Shown here in pieces: positions 1-52,721 of a DNA stretch of 64,000 bases. The position numbers and the translations under genes are program-made. A model generated the notes under the pieces. It made no database searches. It saw only the letters and a list, made by a program, of their open reading frames with translations, and was not told the origin of the DNA. The first letter of the stretch is position 1, and every line of letters begins with the position of its first letter. Source of the DNA: an uncultured Alphaproteobacteria bacterium (GTDB taxonomy: Bacteria; Pseudomonadota; Alphaproteobacteria; CAVTAV01); assembly GCA_963732795.1 (NCBI GenBank), contig CAVTAV010000007.1, positions 18,321 through 82,320 on the forward strand. Reading direction: 5' to 3'.

Positions 1-839
1 ACAGATTTCGTCGAATCTCGCCTCGCGATGACAATGGCATGTTGGGCCTTCGCCGATGTAATCTCGGCGTCGCTACCAAGCTCCGCAGCCGCTGAATCGA
101 TAATCACGGTGTCATACCGGCCACTCACCTCTCGAATCAGTTTGGCAAACCTCTCGCGCCCCAAGAGCTCCTCGGGATTCGGCGGGATTGGCCCGGCCTT
201 CAAAATTGACAACCGATCGATAAACGGACAGGGTTCGATTGCCTCCGGGCCGGCGCGTCCCGACAAAATGGACGAGAGGCCAGGTCCATCCTTGCAGCAA
301 AAGAGCTCGTGTTGCCGCGGATTTCTCAGATCGGCGTCGATCAGGAGCGTTGCTTCTCCCAATTGTGCGAAGACGACGGCGAGATTGGCGGTCAAAACGC
401 TTCGTCCGTCGAAACGGTTCGGACTTACCAATGTAACAACGTGGCCGGTCCGGGAAGATCGTTCCGGCCATCGCGACGAGATTTGACTGCGCAAGTGGCG
501 AGCCGTCTGCGCGATGGGGTGATGCGGGTCGAAGGCGGCTACCACGAGGTCGTCGATCAGACCCTCATCGTGCTCAACTACGGGAAATGAGAATTGTCGT
601 GAGAGGGCTAACCGCAACTCGGCGTCGTCGATGATCCCAAGGCGAATTGCCGCTTCGCCGAATTTCAACCCGTGTCGTTGTTGATGTTGGCTGACGCGGT
701 CGGTATCTTCCTCCGTCAATTTCCCAAGTCCGACCAGGATGGCGCCGAGCGTTCGATGCTCGTCCCTTGGATTAAGGCTTCGACCTCCTGTCCCATTGAG
801 GGCTCCAGTCCGGCCATTATGCGTAGTTTGGATTCTCAT
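1..839 (-). CDS. Polysaccharide-biosynthesis tyrosine autokinase (BY-kinase, EpsG-like); the 3' end runs off the window start
   Basis: Not in the ORF track because there is no stop in the window. My translation of the minus strand from ATG 839..837 gives MRIQTTHNGRTGALNG...LGKLTEEDTDRVSQHQQRHGLKFGEAAIRLGIIDDAELRLALSRQF (GspE-N-like domain). It continues VTLVSPNRFDGRSVLTANLAVVFAQLGEATLLIDADLRNP (Walker A/A') and RYDTVIIDSAA (Walker B). The ATG overlaps the stop of the upstream gene (ATGA at 836-839). Confidence 0.8.
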   Translation of the reverse strand, partial: MRIQTTHNGRTGALNGTGGRSLNPRDEHRTLGAILVGLGKLTEEDTDRVSQHQQRHGLKFGEAAIRLGIIDDAELRLALSRQFSFPVVEHDEGLIDDLVVAAFDPHHPIAQTARHLRSQISSRWPERSSRTGHVVTLVSPNRFDGRSVLTANLAVVFAQLGEATLLIDADLRNPRQHELFCCKDGPGLSSILSGRAGPEAIEPCPFIDRLSILKAGPIPPNPEELLGRERFAKLIREVSGRYDTVIIDSAAAELGSDAEITSAKAQHAIVIARRDSTKS

Positions 840-16188: not shown

Positions 16189-17790
16189 CTATCGCGGCGC
16201 GCCCATGCTGGTCATCAGCTTGGCGGTCTCTTCGGCGGGCAACGCAGAGCGGAGTGCGAGCCACATGACGATCGCGCTCCAGACCGCCGTGGCGACCACG
16301 CCTTCCCAGAAGGGAAGCACGGCATAGCCGCCGCCGATATCGCTCATGGCCGAGAGCAACCACATGCCCCCGAACCAGGCGAACAGCCAGCCGATATTGC
16401 GCCAGCCGAAATCCTCTACCGGGTTCCTGGCGACGAAGTGGTAATAGAGCGCGTAAAGAGCGAAACCGATCGCGACGATCAGGAACAGGAACGAATTGGT
16501 CTCATAACCGGTCCAATAGATGATCCAATTACTGCTGATGAACGCGATCGGCGCCAGGATCCCCGCGCCCTTAAGATGGAACGGCCGGTCCAGATGCGGC
16601 TGGTTCTTGCGCAGGACCAGGAGAATGATCGGTCCCAATCCATAGGTCAGCACGGTGATGGAGGTGATGTAGTTCACCATCAGTTGCCAGGCCGGGAACG
16701 GCAGCAGGAACAGGATGCCGATCGCCCACATTACGAGGACCGCGGCCCAAGGCACCTGCGCCTTGTTCAACGCCGTCAGCCAGGCCGGGCCGGACCGCAT
16801 CTCGCCTACGGCATAGAGAATGCGCGCGCCGCCGGTCAGGAACATCAGGCCCGGTGCCGCCCGGCGAGACATAGGCGTCGATATAGAGAAGCGTCGCCAG
16901 CCAGCCGATGCCGAGCGTCGCGGCAAGGCCCGCGAAAGGTCCCGCCTCGCCGGTGAAGGTGAGGTGCTGCCAGCCATTGGCCATGTCTTCCGGCCGCAGC
17001 GCCATCAGGAAGCCGACCTGCAGCAGGACATAGACGACCGCGGTGATCAGCACCGATCCGATCACGGCGATCGGGATGTGCTTGCTCGGATTGGAGCTTT
17101 CGCCGCCGAGATCGATCGCCGTGCGGAAGCCGAGATAGCTGAACACGATGCCGGCCGCGGGCAGGGCGGTGAAGATGCCGGAGAACTGGTAGCTGTTCGG
17201 GGTCGGCCGACCAGACGTCCCAATGGGTGCTGGCGGCGATCAGGACGATGATGGCCAGAAGCGGCACGGCGAGCTTCCACCAGGTGATGGCGGAATTGAC
17301 ATGGAGCAGCTTGCGCACCGCCAGGAGGTTGAACAGCGCGAAAACGCCAAGCAGCGCCGCGCAGGTGATGAAGCCGACGGTGGTCAGCAGATTCTCGGTT
17401 CCGGGCTGGAGGAAATAGGGCAGGTAGTTGTTGGCGTAGGTAACGATGGCCTCGGCCTCGACCGCCGGCACCGCTACATAGGCGAGAAACAGCATCCAGC
17501 CCCAGATGCGCCCCAGCCCTTCGCCATGGCTCGCATGGCTCATATGCACGAGCGCCCCGCTTCGCGGAAACAGCACGGCCAACTCGGCGAAGCACAGTGC
17601 GATCATCAGGATGATCACCGCGCCCGACAACCCAGCTCCAGATCGCCAGCGGTCCGGCGATCTTGGAGGCGTGATAGGCGCCGAACAGCCAGCCCGAGCC
17701 GATCATGCTGGTGGTGCTGGCGAACAGAAGCCCGATGATCTTGGCGTCGCGGCGTAGTTCCCCCTTCACGCCGTTGGCCGATTCAGCCAT
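16189..17790 (-). pseudogene. APC-family amino acid permease, about 3 frame disruptions (near 17625, 17200, 16850)
   Basis: Four overlapping ORFs in different frames each carry consecutive permease segments. These are LFASTTSMIGSGWLFGAYHAS; ALCFAELAVLFPRSGALVHMSHASHGEGLG; FSYLGFRTAIDLGGESSNP; and LLPFPAWQLMVNYITSITVLTYGLGPIILLVLRK. Confidence 0.8.
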
Positions 17791-28158: not shown

Positions 28159-29341
28159 TCAGGCGGCCTTGAAGCGGATCGGCAGCTTGGCGGGGCCGTG
28201 GCCGATCGTGGTGAGCCACCATTCGAGATCGCCGGCCGATTCGAAGCTCTCGATATGCTTCACGATCGCGCCCAAGAGCGCCTGCGCCTCCATCTGCGCC
28301 AGCGTGCGGCCGACACAGGAATGGACGCCGTAGCCCCAGCCGACATGGCCCTGCAGGTTGCGCTTGATGTCGAACCTGTCGGGCTCCGGCCATTTGCGCG
28401 GATCGCGGTTGGCGGCCGCGAACATCAGCCCGCAGCGCGTGCCTTCCGGGATCACGATGCCCTCGATCTCGACATCCTTCTTGGTGATCCGGCCGGCCAT
28501 GCGCGAAGGCGAATCCCAGCGCAGGCTCTCATCGAACGCCGTCTTGATCAGCGACGGGTCCTGGCGCAGAAGCTGATACTGGTCCGGGAACTCGCAGAAC
28601 GCCCGGATCGCGGTGGACATGGTCATCACCGTCGTGTCCGCCCCGGCCGAAAGCATGGTCAAGCGTCAGGAGCTTCGCATCCTCCTGAGTGATCTCGCCG
28701 CGATCGGCCGCCTCGAACATGGCCATGCCCAGGCTGCCCGGCGCGAGATTCTCCCGCTCGCAGGCCCAGACCGCCCAGTTGATCACGTCGTCCGAGCCCT
28801 CGACGGCCTCATTGAACAGCTCGTTCATCGGCCCCATGGTCGCCCAGACCGCATGGCCGAAGGCGCTCATGTTCTCGCGGCCTTCATGGGGCAGGCCCAG
28901 AAGATCCGGCAGCACCTCATGCACGAAGGGGGCGCAAATCTCGGAATGGGCGTCGATCACCTCGCCCTCGCGCTTCAAAAGCGCCGCGACCTGCTTGTCG
29001 GCGATCTCGTGGAAATGCTGGTCCGCCCGGCTCAAGGTCTTCGGCATCAGCGCCTTGCCGATCACCATCCGGACCTGGGTGTGGCGCGGTGGATCGTCGG
29101 TCAGCAGAATCTCGGGCCGCACGGAGTTCGGATCGTGCCAGGGCCGGGAGGTGTTGGAAAAGGACTTCCAGTCCTGCAATCCCTGCGAGACATGCTCCCA
29201 ACGCGCCAGCATCGCGATGTTCTCGCGCTCGATCCAGAGGACCGGCGCCATCTCCCGCAACGCATCGTCCACCGCGCGCGAGTTGATCACCGACTCGCGG
29301 CTGAATAGATCGTCCTTGTAAACCGGCATCTCAGACGCCAT
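28159..29341 (-). pseudogene. Cytochrome P450, frame-disrupted near 28660
   Basis: The N-terminal ORF 28529..29341 ends in the I-helix region ...AKLLTL. The C-terminal ORF 28159..28662 continues MLSAGADTTV and carries the heme loop WGYGVHSCVGRTLA. cttGaccatg looks like a one-base insertion. Confidence 0.85.
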
Positions 29342-29369
29342 GGGCGTTCTCCTTAACGAAAGTACATGC

Positions 29370-31118: not shown

Positions 31119-31997
31119 TCAGTCCTCGACCTCGAAGCGCGACGAGTCGCCGTCCTTGACGATCCAGCCCGCCGTCGGGTCGCAGAAATGGCTGGCGATG
31201 ATGAAGGCCTTGCGGTCGCCGTAGCGTTTGACGAAATCGGCCCGGGTCGCGGCGCCCTGCGCCTTGTCGAAGTCGAAATTCGCCGGATGCTCGGGCAGCG
31301 CGATCTGGATCGGATGGTGCATCAGGTCGCCGGTGATGACCGCATCCTGGCCCTTGGACGAGATATGGACGCTGACATGGCCGGGCGTATGGCCGGGCGT
31401 CGGGAACAGACTGATTTCGTCCGTCACCTGATATTCGGTGCCGATGAACTGGGCGAGGCCGGCATCGATGACCGGCTCGATCGAATCCGAGAGATGCTCC
31501 ATATGCGGATCGCCACGCCGACGCTTCTCCTGCCAGACGTCCCATTCCTTTTGTCCGAAGAGATAGCGGGCATTGGGGAAGGTCGGCACCCATTTGCCGT
31601 CCACCAGCCGGGTGTTCCAGCCGACGTGATCGAAATGGAGATGGGTGCAGAGCACGGTGGTCACGTCTTCCGGCTTGTAGCCCGAGGCGGCCAAGTCCTC
31701 GAGGAACGAGCCCTGCATGTTGCAGAAGATGTCGTATTCGCGGACCCGGTCGTTGCCGATGCAGGTATCGACCATGATCAGCTCGGTGGGCGTCTTGACC
31801 ACGAAGCATTGGAACGAGATCAGCATGTCGCCGTCGGGCGTCGCGAAATGCGGCTGGAGCCAGTCGTATTTCTTCATCAGCTCGGGCGAGCCGCCTTCGA
31901 GCAAGACCGCGAGCGGGTCCTGATGGGCGTTCACTTCGACGATGCGCGTGACCCGGCAATCGCCGACCGTCCAATGCCGCAAATGTTCCTTGGCCAT
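31119..31997 (-). CDS. MBL-fold metallo-hydrolase
   Basis: 292 aa. The LCTHLHFDHVGWN (HxHxDH) motif and PTPGHTPGHVSVH. Confidence 0.8.
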   Translation of the reverse strand: MAKEHLRHWTVGDCRVTRIVEVNAHQDPLAVLLEGGSPELMKKYDWLQPHFATPDGDMLISFQCFVVKTPTELIMVDTCIGNDRVREYDIFCNMQGSFLEDLAASGYKPEDVTTVLCTHLHFDHVGWNTRLVDGKWVPTFPNARYLFGQKEWDVWQEKRRRGDPHMEHLSDSIEPVIDAGLAQFIGTEYQVTDEISLFPTPGHTPGHVSVHISSKGQDAVITGDLMHHPIQIALPEHPANFDFDKAQGAATRADFVKRYGDRKAFIIASHFCDPTAGWIVKDGDSSRFEVED

Positions 31998-32111: not shown

Positions 32112-32453
32112 CTAGGATTTGCCGTCGCCGTAGCGCAGAACGCTGACCTTTTCGAGGGTGACGAGGCCGCTGCCCATGATCTTGTCGAGCTCGGGCAGAA
32201 AGGCGTCGATCTTTTCCTTGGTATCGACGATTTCGATCACGATCGGCAGGTCCTCCGAGAGCCGTAGGATCTTTGCGGTATGGAGATGGCTCGAATGGCC
32301 GAAGCCCAGCGGGCCGCGCAACACGGTCGCGCCGGCGAGGCCGGCTTTCCGCGCCTTCAGCACGATCGCCTCATAGGCCGGATGGTGGTCCGCCCTGTCG
32401 TCCTCGCCGACGAAAATCCGCAGTAGGACCGCTTGCTCGGGTAGCGCGCTCAT
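32112..32453 (-). CDS. DUF190 domain protein (commonly co-transcribed with crcB)
   Basis: Start at ATG 32453 (MSALPEQAVLLRIFVGEDD...GATVLRGPLGFG...). Begins 8 nt after the crcB stop. Confidence 0.8.
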   Translation of the reverse strand: MSALPEQAVLLRIFVGEDDRADHHPAYEAIVLKARKAGLAGATVLRGPLGFGHSSHLHTAKILRLSEDLPIVIEIVDTKEKIDAFLPELDKIMGSGLVTLEKVSVLRYGDGKS

Positions 32454-32461
32454 GGGGCCTC

Positions 32462-32858
32462 CTATCGATTGATGGTAACGGCCAGGCTGTGGCCGAGCCA
32501 GACGCCCAACAGGCACAGGGCGACCGACAGCACGATGTTCCCCGTGGCCCAGAGCCATTCGCCGTCCTGCATGAGGTTCAGGGTCTGCAGGCTGAAGGAC
32601 GAGAAGGTGGTGAAGCCACCGCACACGCCGACCAGGATGAATTGCCGGCTGCCGGTGCCGATCAGGAGGCGGCCATCAGGGCCGGTCAGGGTGAAGACGA
32701 GACCGATCACCAAGGAGCCGGCGATGTTCACGAACAAGCGTGCCCCAAGGAAAGGTTTCGCCGAACCAGCGCGCAACGAGGCCGGAGCACCAATAGCGGC
32801 CGACGCCGCCGATCGCGCTCCCGAGCGCCACCCAGAGCGGGATCAGCGCGCTCGACAT
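32462..32858 (-). pseudogene. crcB: Fluoride ion channel CrcB, 1-nt frame disruption near 32735
   Basis: N-terminal ORF 32676..32858 (MSSALIPLWVALGSAIGGVGRYWCSGLVARWFGETFPWGTL). C-terminal ORF 32462..32776 (FVNIAGSLVIGL...GVCGGFTTFSSFSLQT). cgcttGttcgtg looks like a one-base insertion. A fluoride riboswitch lies upstream. Confidence 0.85.
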
Positions 32859-32944
32859 GGGTCTTGCGTCCGTCGCGACGGATCGATCGAGGATAGACGG
32901 ATCATGCGGGCCTCCTGGCTCGTTCCCCCTTGGTGGGTTGTTGA

Positions 32945-32993
32945 GGCAGGAGTCATCAGCCGGTCGCGGCGGTTATCGGGGGACTCCATCCCC
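32945..32993 (-). promoter_or_regulatory. Fluoride riboswitch (crcB RNA motif)
   Basis: The minus strand reads GGGGAUGGAGUCCCCCGAUAACCGCCGCGACCGGCUGAUGACUCCUGCC. P1 is GGGG/CCCC around AUGGAGU. P3 is GCCG-CGAC-CGGC. The conserved CUGAUGACUCCU has an ACUCC that pairs with GGAGU to form the pseudoknot. It sits 87 nt upstream of crcB. Confidence 0.85.
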
Positions 32994-33174
32994 ATCGACG
33001 TCGGTCGGATCGAACTTTACGTGGCGGCCTGAGAGCCAGTCAATACAGACGGGCTTGGCTCTCTGCGTCACCCCAGCGCAAGGCTGGGGTCCAGGGCGTC
33101 CGACGTTGCGCTCAACGTCTGACGTGGGGCTGGATGCCAGCCTCCGCTGGCATGACGACGGAGAGAGGTCGCCG

Positions 33175-33375
33175 TTAGCGGTTGATCAGCCACAGAATCG
33201 CGGTCAGGACCACGCTGACGACGATCGAGGTCATGATCGGGATATAGAGCTTGAAATTGCCGCGCTCGATCAGGATGTCCCCCGGCAAGCGGCCGAGACC
33301 GAGCTTCTCGCCGATCAGCCAGGCGACGCCGACCGCGATCAGGATGATGCCGAGAATGATCAGGAGCTTGGGCAT
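33175..33375 (-). CDS. DUF2905-family small membrane protein
   Basis: Start at ATG 33375. MPKLLIILGIILIAVGVAWLIGEKLGLGRLPGDILIERGNFKLYIPIMTSIVVSVVLTAILWLINR (66 aa). Confidence 0.75.
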   Translation of the reverse strand: MPKLLIILGIILIAVGVAWLIGEKLGLGRLPGDILIERGNFKLYIPIMTSIVVSVVLTAILWLINR

Positions 33376-33421
33376 GGCGGTACCGTTGCTCTGATGTAAG
33401 CTCTCCACGGCCCTTTGCCAA

Positions 33422-33787
33422 ATGGACGACCGCATGACCTACGAAGAGTTCAATGCCTTTTGCGACGCCCTGCCGGCCACGAGCTATGTGATGCAATGGG
33501 GCGATTCGCATGTCTGGAAGGTCGGCGGCAAGGTGTTCGCGATCGGCGGCTGGACGGACGGGCCGGGTTATACGTTCAAGGTCAGCGAGATCGCCTATGA
33601 GATGCTGCGGGACCAGCCGGGTTTGCGGCCCGCGCCTTATCTCGCCTCGCGCGGCTTGAAGTGGATCCAGCACTACTCGAAGCCCGGCCTCTCGGACGAG
33701 GACTTGAAATTCTATCTTCTCGAATCCTATCGCATCGTCTCCGAAGGGCTGTCGAAGAAGAAGCGTAAGGCAATTGGGCTATTGTAG
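33422..33787 (+). CDS. MmcQ/YjbR-family protein
   Basis: 121 aa. ...QWGDSHVWKVGGKVFAIGGW...YLASRGLKWIQ... matches the YjbR fold family pattern. Confidence 0.75.
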   Translation: MDDRMTYEEFNAFCDALPATSYVMQWGDSHVWKVGGKVFAIGGWTDGPGYTFKVSEIAYEMLRDQPGLRPAPYLASRGLKWIQHYSKPGLSDEDLKFYLLESYRIVSEGLSKKKRKAIGLL

Positions 33788-33829: not shown

Positions 33830-35234
33830 ATGGCGAATGCACAAGAATACGATCTGGTCGTGATCGGCTGCGGCGCGGCCGGTTTGTCGGCGGCGGTGAG
33901 CTATGGTGCGGTCGCGGTCAGCCAAGGCCGCAAACCGCGGGTGGCCGTGCTGGAGCGGGCTAGCCGGGAGAATCGCGGCGGCGCGACCCGCTGGACCAGT
34001 TCCTGGTTTCGCATCACCGAGGACCGCAAGCCTCGATCCGAATTTCATCCCCCAGATGAAAGCTGTCTCGAACGGGATGGCCGATCTCGATTATTGCGAG
34101 GCGTTGTCGCGCGAAGTGACCGAAACTTTGGGTTTTCTCGAGCGAAACGGCGTCGAATTGATCTATTTTCCGCAGCCTTTCGCCAATCGTAACACCGGCG
34201 GCGGGCTCGGGATGCCGGCCAAGGGCGGGGTCGGGATCGTCGATGGACTGGCGGCGGCCGTCGAAGCGCACGCGCGGGCCTCGACATTCTCTATGAGACC
34301 GAGGCCCTGCGCCTCAGCCAGTCGGACGACGGCCGCGTCAACGGCGTCGTCACCCGCGGGCGCGACGGCTTGACCCGACGGCTCATGGCGCCGGCGGTCG
34401 TCATCGGTTGCGGCGGCTTCGAGGGCAACAAGGAGATGCTGACGCAATATCTCGGCAGCCGGGCCTGCGATCTGCCGCTGGTGGCGCCGACGCTCGTGAA
34501 CAATCGCGGCGAGGGGCTGCGCATGGCGATGGAGGTCGGCGCCGATACGGCCGGTCAGTTCGACATGTTTCACGGCGAGCCGATGGACCCGCGCTCGTCA
34601 AAGCCGGATGCCGTGATCTACGGCTATCCGTTCGGCATCGTCGTCAACAGCGCGGCAAAACGCTTCTTCGACGAAGGAAAAGACAGCTTCGATTCGACTT
34701 TCGAGGCGCTTTCTTTCGAGATCTGGCGCAATCAGGGCCAAAAAGCCTTCTTTATCGGCGATCAGACGACCCTCGAGCATCGATCATTGGGCCGATATCA
34801 ATCTCACCGACCAGCCCATGATCGAAGCGCCGAGCCTTGGGTCCCTCGCCGAAACGCTCGGCCTAGACGCCAAGGCGCTCGAAGCCACGGTCACGGATTA
34901 CAACGCCGCGATCGGCCCCGGCAATTTCGACCCGAAGATCTTCGACGGGACGGCGGCGATCGGCCTCGATCCGCCGAAATCCAATTGGGCGTTCCGGCTG
35001 GAGCGGCCGCCTTTCATCGCCTATCCCCTGACCTGCGCGATCACCTTCACCTTCGGCGGCATCCGCACCAACGCCCAGGCCCAGGTCGTCAGCCCCTCCG
35101 GTGCGCCCATCCCCGGCCTTTATGCCGCCGGCGAAGTCACCGGGCTTTATTATCACGTCTATCCGGCGGGAACCTCGGTGCTGAGGGCGGCGACGTTCGG
35201 GCGGCTTGCCGGGGCGCATGCCGCCTCGGCCTAG
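33830..35234 (+). pseudogene. FAD-binding flavoprotein (fumarate-reductase/TcuA-like), about 3 frame disruptions (near 34030, 34272, 34787)
   Basis: Four frame pieces: YDLVVIGCGAAGLSAAVS...RGGATRWTSSWFR; NGMADLDYCEALSREVTETLGFLERNGVE...; VVIGCGGFEGNKEMLTQYLG...; and IDHWADINLTDQPMIEAPSL...GLYAAGEVTGLYYHVYPAGTSVLRAATFGRLAG. Confidence 0.75.
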
Positions 35235-36159: not shown

Positions 36160-36275
36160 GCGGCATCGCGTCTCATCCGGGCTTTTGCTATTGCAAATTC
36201 TCGCCCCAAGAGGGGAGTATGCGCCACCGCGCGCCGGGGCGAAGGACCGTGAAATCAAGGTCGGAGGAGAGGCAC

Positions 36276-37035
36276 ATGCTGCAGCTTTATCATTGGGAGC
36301 CCAATGCGAATTCGGGCAAACCGATGCTTACGCTCGCCGAAAAAGGCGTGCCCTATGAGAGCCATTACCTGGATCTTTTGAAGATGGACCAGCACAAGCC
36401 GGACTATCTCAAGGTCAATCCGGACGGCACGATCCCGGCGATGGTCGATGGCGACCGCGTGCTCACCGAATCCACCCCGATGATGGAATATGTCGACGAG
36501 AAATTCGACGGCCCGCCGCTGCGCCCGGAGCGATCCCAAGGAGCGCTGGCGGATGCGCTGGTGGATGCGCTATTTCGATTCCTATTTCGCGCCGTCGGTC
36601 AGCATGATCGGCTGGAACATGTTCGTCGGCCCGTCGGCCCGCACCCGCGATCCCGAGGAGATGAAGGCGGCGATCGAGAAGATTCCGCTCGAATCCCGCC
36701 GCGTCGCCTGGCGCAAGGCGCTGTTCAATGAGTTCACCGAGGACGAGCTCGCCGAATCCCGCCGCCGCACGATCTTCTCCATCGGCATTCTGGAGCAGCA
36801 TCTGACGCACCATCCCTTCATCGCCGGCAATTCCTACAGCCTCGGCGACATCAACGGCTTCAACCTCGCCTATGCGCTGCCGTTCTCCCAGCCGGACCAC
36901 TGCAACGACGACAAGACGCCCAAGATCATGGCTTGGCTCCGGATGATCTATGCCCGTCCGGCGACCAAGGAGACCTGGGCCAAGGGCCGCACCGAACTGG
37001 CCTCGCGCTTGACGAAGCTCGAGCCGAAGAAATAA
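36276..37035 (+). pseudogene. Glutathione S-transferase family protein, frame-disrupted near 36530
   Basis: The N-terminal thioredoxin-like part MLQLYHWEPNANSGKPMLTLAEKGVPYE...VLTESTPMMEYVDE is in one frame. The C-terminal part DPKERWRMRWWMRYFDSYF...FIAGNSYSLGDINGFN is in ORF 36490..37035. gagCgat looks like a one-base insertion. Confidence 0.8.
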
Positions 37036-50793: not shown

Positions 50794-51091
50794 GTTCGAC
50801 ATCCGTGTAATCTTGTCCCTCCATTGTCGAGTGCAGACCTTGGAGGGAGGGATGTTTGAGCTAGAGGGGAAGGGAGTGCCGCCCGCGTCGCTTTGACGTC
50901 TCGCGTGTCTCGCCCTAACTGATCCTCGATCTTCTCGAACGGACGATAAGGGCCGGTTCTATGCCGCCACCGGATCGCTCGTCGCGGTGCCCGTTGACAC
51001 GTCCGAAGGCGACGGCCAAGCTATAGCCACAGCGCTGTCGCGTCGGGGAGGCGTGGTCTGTCGCGCCTTCAGTTCGGGGAAAACAACCGCA

Positions 51092-52721
51092 ATGAGTGAG
51101 TTGGGCTTGCTGTCGCGCGAACGTATCGTCGCGAAGCCGGGCTTTAATCGTTGGACGGTACCGCCGGCCGCCGTCGCCATCCATCTGTGCATCGGGATGG
51201 CCTATGGATTCAGCGTCTTCTGGCTGCCGCTGTCGCGCGCGGTCGGGATCGATGCTTCCGTTGCGTGTCCCGACGGATCCTCGCTGCTCCATCGGCTTGT
51301 CGCGACCGACTGTGACTGGTTGGTCAGCGACGTCCAATGGATGTACACTCTCTTTTTCGTTTTTCTTGGAACGGCCGCCGCGATCTGGGGCGGATGGCTG
51401 GAGCGCGCCGGTCCGCGCCGTGCCGGCGTCGTGGCTGCGTTCTGCTGGTGCGGCGGCTTCGTGATCTCGGCGATCGGCGTCGCGGCCCATCAGTTGTGGC
51501 TGATGTGGCTCGGTTCGGGCGTGATCGGCGGCATCGGCATCGGGCTCGGCTATATCTCGCCCGTCTCGACCCTCATCAAATGGTTTCCCGACCGGCGCGG
51601 CATGGCGACGGGTATGGCGATCATGGGCTTCGGGGGCGGCGCGATGATCGGCGCCCCGCTCGCCAACTGGCTGATGACCGTCTTCGCGACCCGCCATTCG
51701 GTCGGCGTCTGGCAGACCTTCCTGGTACTGGGCGCGGTCTATTTCGTGTTCATGCTGGGCGGGGCGTTCGGCTATCGCATTCCGCCGGCCGGGTGGCGGC
51801 CGGAAGGCTGGGAGCCGCCGAAGGACAAGACGCATGCGCTGATCACCAATCGTCATGTGCATCTGAAGGACGCGCATAAGACGCGCCAGTTCTGGCTGAT
51901 CTGGCTGGTGCTGACCTTGAACGTCATTCCGGGCATCGGCGTTCTGGGCATGGCCTCGCCGATGCTGCAGGAGATCTTCGCCGGCTCGCTGATCGGCGCG
52001 CCGCATGTCGGCTTCACCGCACTCGATGCGTCACAGCGCGTGGCGGTCGCGGCGATCGCCGCCGGCTTCACCGGACTGTTGTCGCTGTTCAATATCGGCG
52101 GCCGCTATTTCTGGGCGTCGGTCTCGGACAGGATCGGCCGCAAGATGACCTATTACACGTTCTTCGTGCTCGGCATCGCGCTCTATGCGCTGGCGCCGTG
52201 CCACCGCCCATATGGGCTCGAAGATCCTGTTCGTGCTGTTCTTCTGCGTGATCCTGTCGATGTATGGCGGCGGCTTCGCGACCGTGCCGGCCTATCTCGC
52301 CGATGTGTTCGGCACGCAATTCGTCGGCGCGATCCATGGCCGGCTGCTGACCGCCTGGTCGGTCGCCGGGCTCATCGGCCCGGTGATCGTGAGCTATATC
52401 CGCGAGGGCCAGATCGCGGCCGGCGTGCCGAATAACCTCGTCTATGATTTCACGATGTATATTCTCGCCGGCATGCTGATCCTCGGCTTCCTCTGCAATA
52501 TGGGCATCAAGCCGGTGAAAGAGCACCTCTATATGTCGGACAAGGAAGTCGCGACGCACGAGGCCAAGGCCCATGCGGTCGTCGCCGGCGCGACCAGTTC
52601 CTACGGGATCGGCCGCGGCGGGTTCGACATGAAAGCGTTCCTCGCCTGGTCGGCGATCGGCATTCCCATCGCCTGGGGCGCCTGGGTCACGCTCAAGAAC
52701 GCCTTCGTGCTGTTCCAGTAG
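51092..52721 (+). pseudogene. OFA-family MFS transporter (oxalate/formate antiporter-like), frame-disrupted near 52198
   Basis: Start at ATG 51092 (MSELGLLSRERIVAKPGFNRWTVPPAAVAIHLCIGMAYGFSVFW). WFPDRRGMATGMAIMGFGGG. The C-terminal half (ILFVLFFCVILSMYGGGFATVPAYLADVFG) is in ORF 52185..52721. gccgTgccacc looks like a one-base insertion. Confidence 0.8.

What the first reader, a model, noticed from the sequence alone, without database searches (positions are those of the whole stretch)
32843..32993. Fluoride riboswitch whose apparent SD-sequestering partner serves a 20-codon uORF overlapping the crcB start; crcB itself is frame-broken
The riboswitch core (32993->32945, minus strand) is canonical. 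About 26 nt downstream lies CCAGGAGG (32918-32911). This is the only strong SD in the leader, and it is complementary to the riboswitch strand ACUCCUG, which also forms the fluoride-dependent pseudoknot with GGAGU. That is the arrangement expected for translational ON control.

However, that SD is spaced 5 nt from ATG 32905, not from the crcB ATG at 32858, which has no obvious SD. ATG 32905 opens MIRLSSIDPSRRTQDPCRAR and stops at TGA 32845-32843, 14 nt inside crcB in another frame. Either crcB is expressed by termination-reinitiation coupling from a riboswitch-controlled uORF, or an assembly indel hides a longer crcB N-terminus.

crcB also carries a one-base insertion near 32735. If that insertion is real, a functional riboswitch would be driving a dead channel plus an intact DUF190 gene.
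Basis: partly seen in the sequence, partly recalled or inferred. Interest (0 to 1): 0.6.

Follow-up and report, generated by a model that had tools for sequence, protein, structure and literature searches.

The report
Fluoride switch gating a leader ORF
A genuine fluoride-sensing RNA switch here controls the ribosome-binding site of a roughly 20-codon leader ORF that ends just inside the fluoride-channel gene crcB; relatives keep this layout, and the apparent break in crcB is most likely an assembly error.

Summary
All sequence details of the finding are correct.

- **Riboswitch.** The aptamer is a full-length RF01734 match (58.1 bits, cut-off 34) at 32940-33002 (-).
- **Switch geometry.** Its 3' tail CUCCUG is predicted to pair with the only strong Shine-Dalgarno (SD) site of the leader, CCAGGAGG at 32918-32911.
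- **Leader ORF (uORF).** That SD sits 5 nt before ATG 32905. The ATG opens a 20-codon uORF that stops at 32845-32843, which is nt +14..16 of crcB.
- **Not an indel artefact.** Nine further sequences from independent assemblies keep the same SD, a start codon at 5-nt spacing, and a 20-23 codon uORF ending at crcB +14..16 (once at +6..8). The peptide sequence is not conserved. Three of them have no aptamer at all. All close CrcB homologues start at the equivalent of ATG 32858.
- **Best reading.** A translational ON switch works through a relay uORF coupled to crcB. The nearest precedent is the B12 riboswitch/uPPE2 system of M. tuberculosis. This rests on comparative evidence only.
- **crcB frame break.** One extra base at 32732-32738 is real in the assembly. 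Eight of 18 neighbouring genes are also frame-broken relative to the congener, mostly by 1-nt insertions. The break is therefore most likely a sequencing error, not a dead channel.

The parts
33014..33043 (-). Promoter-like site TTGACT-18-TAAAGT, about 12 nt upstream of the aptamer. The TTGACTGGC motif recurs in the congener G002.
   Evidence: This is a consensus match only.
32940..33002 (-). Fluoride riboswitch aptamer (RF01734).
   Evidence: 58.1 bits against a gathering score of 34, full model 1-64.
32983..32987 (-). GGAGU, the 5' strand of the fluoride-dependent pseudoknot.
   Evidence: alignment; sequence.
32947..32953 (-). ACUCCUG, the 3' pseudoknot strand. Its CUCCUG part is also the anti-SD.
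   Evidence: paired with 32912-32917 in the MFE and centroid folds.
32911..32918 (-). CCAGGAGG, the riboswitch-gated Shine-Dalgarno site of the uORF.
   Evidence: -10.3 kcal/mol to the anti-SD. Invariant in all aptamer-bearing relatives.
32843..32905 (-). uORF of 20 codons plus TGA (MIRLSSIDPSRRTQDPCRAR), overlapping crcB by 16 nt in the +1 frame.
   Evidence: Position and length are conserved in 9 related sequences; the peptide sequence is not.
32739..32858 (-). crcB 5' part, in the frame of ATG 32858 (CRCB profile positions 1-30).
   Evidence: The start matches 131-aa homologues.
32732..32738 (-). Site of one extra base in crcB: G000 CTTGTTC versus ATGTTC in G002 and CTCACC in L107.
32462..32734 (-). 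crcB 3' part in the shifted frame (CRCB profile positions 30-102), ending at TAG 32464-32462.
32112..32453 (-). DUF190 gene (113 aa), intact, with its own SD UAGGAGG.
   Evidence: 137 bits; -10.2 kcal/mol.
33175..33435 (-). DUF2905 gene upstream. It is a conserved neighbour and is not part of the regulated unit.
   Evidence: synteny.

Best explanation
The locus is a fluoride-inducible crcB-DUF190 operon whose riboswitch acts through a relay uORF.

1. Without fluoride, the aptamer's 3' tail CUCCUG pairs with CAGGAG of the leader's only strong SD and blocks initiation at ATG 32905.
2. With fluoride, the tail is held in the pseudoknot with GGAGU. The SD is then free and ribosomes translate a 20-codon uORF of arbitrary sequence.
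3. These ribosomes terminate 13 nt downstream of the crcB ATG, which has no SD.
4. They deliver translation to crcB by termination-reinitiation, by opening local structure, or both. They probably also protect the leader from premature termination.

The one-base insertion that breaks crcB is an error of an indel-rich assembly; the organism most likely has an intact 131-aa CrcB.

Shown here: the aptamer, the predicted pairing, the uORF geometry and its conservation, and the indel load. Inferred: uORF translation, coupling to crcB, and the fluoride response.
For: **Riboswitch and pairing.**

**uORF geometry in ten sequences from independent assemblies** (G000, L107, G002/L020, L021, L115, L022-24, L025/26, L114):
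- All keep AGGAGG plus a start codon at 5-nt spacing.
- All have a 20-23 codon uORF.
- The stop lies at crcB +14..16 in nine of them, as TGA or TAA.

**Divergence pattern.**
- The uORF interior is only 31-56% identical between lineages. The crcB 5' end is 78-93% identical and the SD plus start 75-100%.
- The start-to-start distance stays at 47 or 50 nt. The adjacent aptamer-to-SD linker varies by 1 nt.

**Re-framed case.** In G002/L020 a 2-nt spacer change re-frames the uORF onto a GTG start. There a synonymous TCT-AGC in crcB creates a TAG at +6..8.

**Aptamer-less lineages.** L025, L026 and L114 lack the aptamer but keep the promoter-like site, SD, ATG and a 21-codon uORF.

**crcB start.**
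- It has background-level SD strength in G000, G002, L025 and L114.
- Close homologues all start at the equivalent Met.

**Recurrence elsewhere.** SD-led uORFs ending within -12..+20 of the crcB start occur in 12 of 83 loci, against 1.2 in shuffles. These include the unrelated lineages L095 and L027/28/33.

**Precedent.** B12 riboswitch, uPPE2 and termination-reinitiation in M. tuberculosis (PMC11260477).

**Assembly error.**
- 8 of 18 G002 orthologues hit G000 in more than one frame, against 3 of 31 in the reverse direction.
- The differences are mostly 1-nt insertions, four of them in one 1.3-kb gene.
- Completeness is 81% for an 11-contig assembly.
- A P450 and an MFS gene are split.
Against:
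- uORF openness alone is weak evidence: about 0.06 by chance for six lineages. The other frames of the interior are also nearly stop-free.
- The lineages are related, so frame and length may partly be inherited.
- The sequestering helix is invariant, so it offers no covariation.
- Leader folds are no more stable than shuffles, with z about 0.
- Most alphaproteobacterial crcB genes sampled (23 of 28) show no SD core either, without any uORF, so an SD-less crcB need not depend on coupling.
- In the GTG-start sub-clade (L021-24, L115) crcB has its own SD inside the uORF.
- In G002 the ancestral ATG is followed directly by TGA.
- The extra base in crcB is not in a long homopolymer.
Confidence: 0.6

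Rival explanations
1. The uORF as such is incidental. The gated SD plus start codon acts only as a ribosome loading or standby site (or as a start-stop site, as in G002). crcB initiates by itself at its SD-less start, and fluoride control is exerted mainly through ribosome-dependent protection of the leader from Rho or from decay.
For: - SD-less crcB starts are the rule in the class-level sample.
- G002 and L020 have ATG-TGA right after the SD.
- In S. meliloti the SD of a SAM-II riboswitch is needed for translation that starts 74 nt downstream (PMC9373788).
- The uORF's openness is not significant by itself.
Against: - The start-to-start distance is kept at 47 or 50 nt, and the stop stays within 16 nt of the crcB start in all ten sequences, despite saturated divergence of the interior.
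- A TAG is newly created in the re-framed G002 lineage.
- The uORF persists in lineages that lack the aptamer.
Confidence: 0.2
2. The one-base insertion is real, so crcB is a recent pseudogene in this organism and the riboswitch now drives only DUF190.
For: - The insertion is present in the assembly.
- It is not in a long homopolymer.
- Reads could not be inspected.
Against: - It is the only crcB in the genome.
- All 20 closest homologues are intact.
- Both halves remain about 90% identical at DNA level to L107 with no further damage.
- Neighbouring genes carry the same kind of 1-nt insertions at roughly one per 2 kb.
Confidence: 0.1
3. An assembly indel in the leader hides a longer CrcB N-terminus that starts at ATG 32905.
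For: - The assembly is indel-rich.
- ATG 32905 carries the strong SD.
Against: - Independent assemblies (megahit contigs among them) show the same out-of-frame uORF with the same 47 or 50-nt spacing.
- The uORF interior is unconserved at peptide level.
- Homologues start at the equivalent of ATG 32858.
Confidence: 0.01

Closest known systems
Translational fluoride riboswitches (crcB motif, RF01734) with direct SD sequestration
   Same: - Same aptamer.
- Same logic: the 3' pseudoknot strand ACUCCUG alternatively pairs with a CAGGAG SD.
- Same target genes (crcB, DUF190).
- Direct versions were seen here in L058, L074, L082 and L106.
   Different: In the direct versions the gated SD lies 4-7 nt before the crcB ATG, in leaders of 17-44 nt. 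Here the SD serves a 20-codon uORF, and crcB starts 47 nt further on without an SD.
M. tuberculosis ppe2 B12 riboswitch with uPPE2 and termination-reinitiation (Kipkorir et al. 2024, PMC11260477)
   Same: - The riboswitch controls translation of a short leader ORF.
- The main ORF overlaps the uORF stop.
- The uORF serves as a 'landing pad' for ribosomes.
   Different: - That system is an OFF switch for B12 in an actinobacterium with a 4-nt AUGA overlap, and it is experimentally shown.
- Here the switch is an ON switch for fluoride in uncultured Alphaproteobacteria with a 16-nt overlap (8 nt in G002), and the mechanism is only inferred.
[quoted passage not shown] 2022, PMC9373788)
   Same: - It is alphaproteobacterial.
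- The SD inside the riboswitch is required for translation that starts far downstream.
   Different: There AUG1 and AUG2 are in frame and a terminator lies between them. Here the upstream ORF is out of frame and ends on the main start.
Classical translational coupling of overlapping genes (termination-reinitiation; from my own knowledge of the field)
   Same: The upstream stop lies within a few nucleotides of a downstream start that lacks an SD.
   Different: The upstream cistron here encodes no conserved protein, and its initiation is ligand-gated.

Membership tests
Fluoride riboswitch (RF01734) | Covariance-model score at or above the curated gathering score, over the full model | tested here: met
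   58.1 bits against 34, model positions 1-64, no non-canonical pairs.
Fluoride riboswitch (RF01734) | Pseudoknot between the P1-loop GGAGU and the 3' ACUCC | tested here: met
   Both strands are present at 32987-32983 and 32953-32949.
Fluoride riboswitch (RF01734) | Located upstream of fluoride-resistance genes on the same strand | tested here: met
   crcB (PF02537) and DUF190 (PF02641) lie downstream.
Fluoride riboswitch (RF01734) | Binds fluoride and changes gene expression | not testable with these tools
   Needs in-line probing and reporter assays.
CrcB/Fluc fluoride channel (PF02537) | Pfam CRCB match covering the domain | tested here: met
   profile positions 1-30 and 30-102, but in two reading frames.
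CrcB/Fluc fluoride channel (PF02537) | A single open reading frame of about 125-135 aa | tested here: not met
   One extra base at 32732-32738 splits it. Orthologues are intact at 131 aa. The split is most likely an assembly error.
Riboswitch-gated uORF with coupled main ORF (ppe2 type) | The riboswitch's alternative pairing covers the uORF's SD | tested here: met
   CUCCUG/CAGGAG pair in the MFE and centroid folds. Both strands are invariant in relatives. This is a prediction only.
Riboswitch-gated uORF with coupled main ORF (ppe2 type) | The uORF stop overlaps or abuts the main ORF start, and this is conserved in relatives | tested here: met
   The stop is at crcB +14..16 in 9 sequences and at +6..8 in the G002/L020 lineage.
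Riboswitch-gated uORF with coupled main ORF (ppe2 type) | The main ORF lacks its own ribosome-binding site | tested here: inconclusive
   Met in G000, G002, L025 and L114. Not met in the GTG-start sub-clade. SD-less crcB genes are common anyway.
Riboswitch-gated uORF with coupled main ORF (ppe2 type) | The uORF is translated and main-ORF expression depends on it | not testable with these tools
   Needs reporter fusions, toeprinting or ribosome profiling.

The most novel reading that the evidence does not exclude
A short relay uORF that ends on the crcB start may be a recurrent, undescribed kind of expression platform for fluoride riboswitches and crcB. In one form the riboswitch gates the uORF's SD directly (the G000 clade, L095, L046). 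In another, the uORF sits behind a terminator-type switch with a conserved ..PSPxRLTLNS.. peptide (L027, L028, L033). The uORF also survives loss of the aptamer, which implies that crcB translation in these lineages generally needs an upstream ribosome 'landing pad'.
Probability: 0.3. Interest if true: 0.6.

Novelty: new variant of a known kind. Interest (0 to 1): 0.42.

Why it matters
Fluoride riboswitches are textbook examples with two described outputs: a terminator, or direct sequestration of the gene's own SD. A third output, a relay through a sequence-free uORF coupled to the channel gene, would extend to a second riboswitch class, and to an ON switch, the riboswitch/uORF interplay so far shown experimentally for B12 switches in mycobacteria. 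It would also matter for annotation and for riboswitch-based fluoride biosensors, where the leader is often trimmed to the aptamer plus SD.

The practical lesson for this genome is that frame breaks, here and in many neighbouring genes, should not be read as pseudogenes.

Tried and rejected
- **First frameshift count.** It used all ORFs of at least 150 aa and was confounded by spurious long ORFs in GC-rich DNA. I replaced it with GC3-filtered ORFs.
- **Aptamer regex.** My regular expression missed about half of the riboswitches, so I re-scanned all loci with Rfam.
- **Covariation in the sequestering helix.** The 6-bp core is invariant and the extension is inconsistent, so it is uninformative.
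- **Structure hiding the crcB start.** Folds are no better than shuffles. P(unpaired) of the crcB initiation region is 0.19-0.44 with no common motif.
- **uORF openness as a statistic.** It is too weak alone.
- **Third genome of the genus (G001).** It has no close crcB; the assembly is 67% complete.
- **Genome-contig scan.** It returned only G002 and a distant Terrimicrobiaceae hit.
- **Class-level sample of 400 species.** No further G000-type leader was found.
- **Programmed frameshift in crcB.** Rejected, because no relative shares the extra base.
- **Literature.** No paper in the held library links fluoride riboswitches or crcB with a uORF or leader peptide.

Full report
**1. Observation**

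- Rfam finds one family in the whole window: RF01734 at 32940-33002 (-), 58.1 bits against a gathering score of 34, full model, no non-canonical pair.
- It is the only fluoride riboswitch and the only crcB in the 3.95-Mb, 11-contig assembly.
- CCAGGAGG lies at 32918-32911.
- ATG 32905 opens MIRLSSIDPSRRTQDPCRAR and stops at TGA 32845-32843.
- The crcB ATG is at 32858.
- Pfam places CRCB profile positions 1-30 in the ORF from ATG 32858 and positions 30-102 in another frame. DUF190 (32453-32112) is intact, and DUF2905 lies upstream.
- A promoter-like site, TTGACT-18-TAAAGT, sits about 12 nt before the aptamer.
- No intrinsic terminator lies in the leader.
- The MFE and centroid folds both pair CUCCUG (32952-32947) with CAGGAG (32917-32912).
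- Pairing energy with the anti-SD is -10.3 kcal/mol before the uORF start and -3.2 before the crcB start. Background has a mean of -2.4 and a 1st percentile of -8.9.

**2. The crcB frame break**

The same-genus genome G002 is titled 'MAG: uncultured Alphaproteobacteria bacterium isolate MFD05684.bin.1.14' and is 98% complete. It has the same DUF2905, riboswitch, crcB, DUF190 and metallo-beta-lactamase-fold order and an intact 131-aa crcB.
- At the break G002 reads ACG ATG TTC GTG and G000 reads ACG CTT G TTC GTG. That is one extra base within 32738-32732.
- The closest relative found, L107 (about 90% DNA identity, from a megahit contig), also lacks it.
- All 20 nearest CrcB proteins are intact. 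They are 131 aa (one 127 aa) and begin MSS, MSG or MPG, at the equivalent of ATG 32858.

I then asked whether G000 is generally indel-ridden.
- In about 60 kb of synteny (about 80% DNA identity), 8 of 18 GC3-filtered G002 genes match G000 in two to four frames.
- The reverse comparison gives 3 of 31, and these are by-products of the same breaks.
- DNA alignments show mostly single-base insertions in G000, for example four in one 1.3-kb gene whose pieces are 86-93% identical in protein.
- A cytochrome P450 and an MFS transporter in the window are split in this way.
- Completeness is only 81% despite 11 contigs.

At roughly one frame switch per 2 kb of coding sequence, a break in a 396-nt gene is unremarkable. 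I put about 0.88 on an assembly error.

**3. The uORF is not an artefact and its geometry is conserved**

I fetched leaders from independent assemblies through exact-protein look-ups and read them. All ten sequences carry AGGAGG followed at 5 nt by a start codon.

| Sequence | uORF peptide | Codons | Stop |
|---|---|---|---|
| G000 | MIRLSSIDPSRRTQDPCRAR | 20 | TGA at crcB +14..16 |
| L107 | MKTVIVCLFACGGVSPCRAR | 20 | TGA at +14..16 |
| L021 | MTFASETPTDHPRRAAPCRAS | 21 | TAA at +14..16 |
| L115 | MTFASEKPTDCLGRAAPCPAL | 21 | TGA at +14..16 |
| L022 | MISVFGRLSFCLWRAAPCPAS | 21 | TGA at +14..16 |
| L023 | MKSVFGKRSRYLERVAPCPAW | 21 | TGA at +14..16 |
| L024 | MKSVFGRQPCCLERVAPCPAW | 21 | TGA at +14..16 |
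| L025/L026 | MFRACGIHRDGPFPSPSCRAA | 21 | TGA at +14..16 |
| L114 | MTRTGGIRFNGPFESVTCPAA | 21 | TGA at +14..16 |
| G002/L020 | see below | 23 | TAG at +6..8 |

- **Divergence.** Between lineages the uORF interior is 31-56% identical, which is essentially saturated. The crcB 5' end is 78-93% identical and the SD plus start 75-100%.
- **Length.** The distance from the uORF start to the crcB start is 47 or 50 nt. The neighbouring aptamer-to-SD linker varies by single nucleotides, 27 or 28.
- **Re-framed lineage.** In G002 and L020 a 2-nt shorter spacer puts the old ATG directly before TGA. A GTG now sits at the 5-nt position and opens a 23-codon ORF in the other frame. That ORF ends at a TAG at crcB +6..8, created by the synonymous pair TCT-AGC, where other lineages have TCG-AGC or TCC-GGC.
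- **Aptamer-less lineages.** L025, L026 and L114 have no aptamer: L025 and L026 show none at gathering threshold, and in L114 there is no room for one. They keep the homologous promoter-like stretch, GAGGAGG, the ATG and the 21-codon uORF.

**4. How strong is this?**

Weak points:
- Openness of a 20-codon frame in this composition is expected in 44-69% of shuffles per lineage, about 0.06 for six lineages.
- The other frames of the interior are nearly stop-free too.
- The sequestering helix is invariant, so it gives no covariation.
- Folding energies equal those of shuffles.
- No common structure hides the crcB start.
- In a class-wide sample, 23 of 28 crcB genes lack an SD core without having a uORF.
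- In the GTG-start sub-clade crcB has its own SD inside the uORF.

The case therefore rests on the following:
- the invariant SD and start geometry;
- the conserved length and stop position against a saturated interior;
- the re-framed but still crcB-terminating uORF in G002;
- survival of the uORF without the aptamer;
- regulatory logic: the only thing the conserved switch can occlude is the uORF's SD, so its output must reach crcB through uORF translation.

**5. Wider survey**

Of 80 metagenomic crcB loci that are 48-66% identical, 25 carry RF01734. Their platforms fall into these groups:

| Platform | Number | Loci |
|---|---|---|
| Direct SD in front of the crcB start (leaders of 17-44 nt) | 11 | e.g. 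L058, L074, L082, L106 |
| Terminator-like hairpin followed by crcB | 8 | L036-38, L041, L047, L050, L053, L071 |
| Terminator followed by an SD-led uORF ending on the crcB start | 3 | L027 (AUGA), L028 (UGAUG), L033 |
| Switch-paired SD leading a uORF | 2 | L095, L046 |
| Unclear | 1 | L080 |

- In L027, L028 and L033 the uORF shares ..PSPxRLTLNS...
- In L095, GTAGGAGG is followed at 5 nt by TTG; the uORF has 35 codons and stops at -6.
- In L046 the uORF has 43 codons and stops at +8.
- SD-led uORFs ending within -12..+20 of the crcB start occur in 12 of 83 loci against 1.2 after shuffling. The 12 fall into only four or five independent groups.
- Two unchecked notes of this scan describe coupled uORFs before crcB in other genomes.

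**6. Mechanism**

- Shown: the aptamer; the predicted alternative pairing; the uORF geometry and its conservation.
- Inferred:
  - Fluoride stabilises the pseudoknot and frees the SD.
  - Ribosomes translate the uORF and terminate 13 nt past the crcB AUG.
  - They reinitiate there, open the region, or both, and incidentally shield the leader from Rho.

Rivals:
- A loading or standby role without true coupling: 0.2.
- A real pseudogene: 0.1.
- A hidden N-terminal extension: 0.01.

**7. Comparison with known systems**

The closest precedent is the M. tuberculosis ppe2 B12 riboswitch. Its uPPE2 uORF is required for PPE2 expression by termination-reinitiation at an AUGA overlap (PMC11260477). In S. 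meliloti, the SD of a SAM-II riboswitch is needed for metA translation that starts 74 nt downstream (PMC9373788).

No paper in the held library links fluoride riboswitches or crcB with a uORF or leader peptide.

**8. Verdict**

- The locus is an ordinary fluoride riboswitch operon in its parts.
- It has an unusual relay-uORF expression platform with comparative support, which makes it a new variant of a known kind.
- The 'dead channel' is an assembly artefact.
- Interest is moderate.

Noticed in passing
window 16204-17760, 28162-29353, 33836-35228, 36237-37029, 51077-52715 (and beyond the window on the same contig): Many genes are frame-broken relative to the congener G002, mostly by single-base insertions. 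Examples are a cytochrome P450 (28162-29353, -) and an MFS transporter (51077-52715, +). The assembly appears indel-rich, so apparent pseudogenes in this genome should not be trusted.
   Followed up: partly
L027 about 610-700, L028 about 520-610, L033 about 610-690: In a different crcB clade (60-66% identical), a terminator-type fluoride riboswitch is followed by an AGGAG-led uORF of 22-27 codons. The uORF ends on the crcB start (AUGA, UGAUG, or 4 nt before it). It shares a conserved ..PSPxRLTLNS.. peptide and CGACTCACGCTAAACAGC nucleotide block.
   Followed up: partly
L025 1377-1500, L026 727-850, L114 60-175: These close relatives lack the aptamer but keep the homologous promoter-like stretch (TTGACAGGCC...GGGGCAGTT), GAGGAGG, the ATG and the 21-codon uORF in front of crcB. 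The aptamer looks like a module cleanly inserted or deleted between the promoter and the SD.
   Followed up: partly
L004 1468-1463 (-), L020 about 1125-1130: In G002 and L020 the SD-proximal ATG is followed directly by TGA, giving a start-stop mini-ORF. An overlapping GTG two bases later opens the 23-codon uORF.
   Followed up: no
L095 553-689, L046 546-683: Two unrelated metagenomic crcB loci also have the riboswitch-complementary SD serving a uORF. These have 35 and 43 codons and end at -6 and +8 of the crcB start.
   Followed up: no
window 31119-31997 (-): A metallo-beta-lactamase-fold gene follows DUF190 in G000, G002 and most relatives (L020, L023, L024, L108). It is a conserved neighbour of the fluoride operon of unknown relevance.
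   Followed up: no
all ten leaders of the clade: ATG-start crcB genes (G000, L107, G002, L025, L114) have no or weak SD. GTG-start crcB genes (L021, L115, L022-24) carry a GGAGG-type SD 8 nt upstream, inside the uORF.
   Followed up: partly
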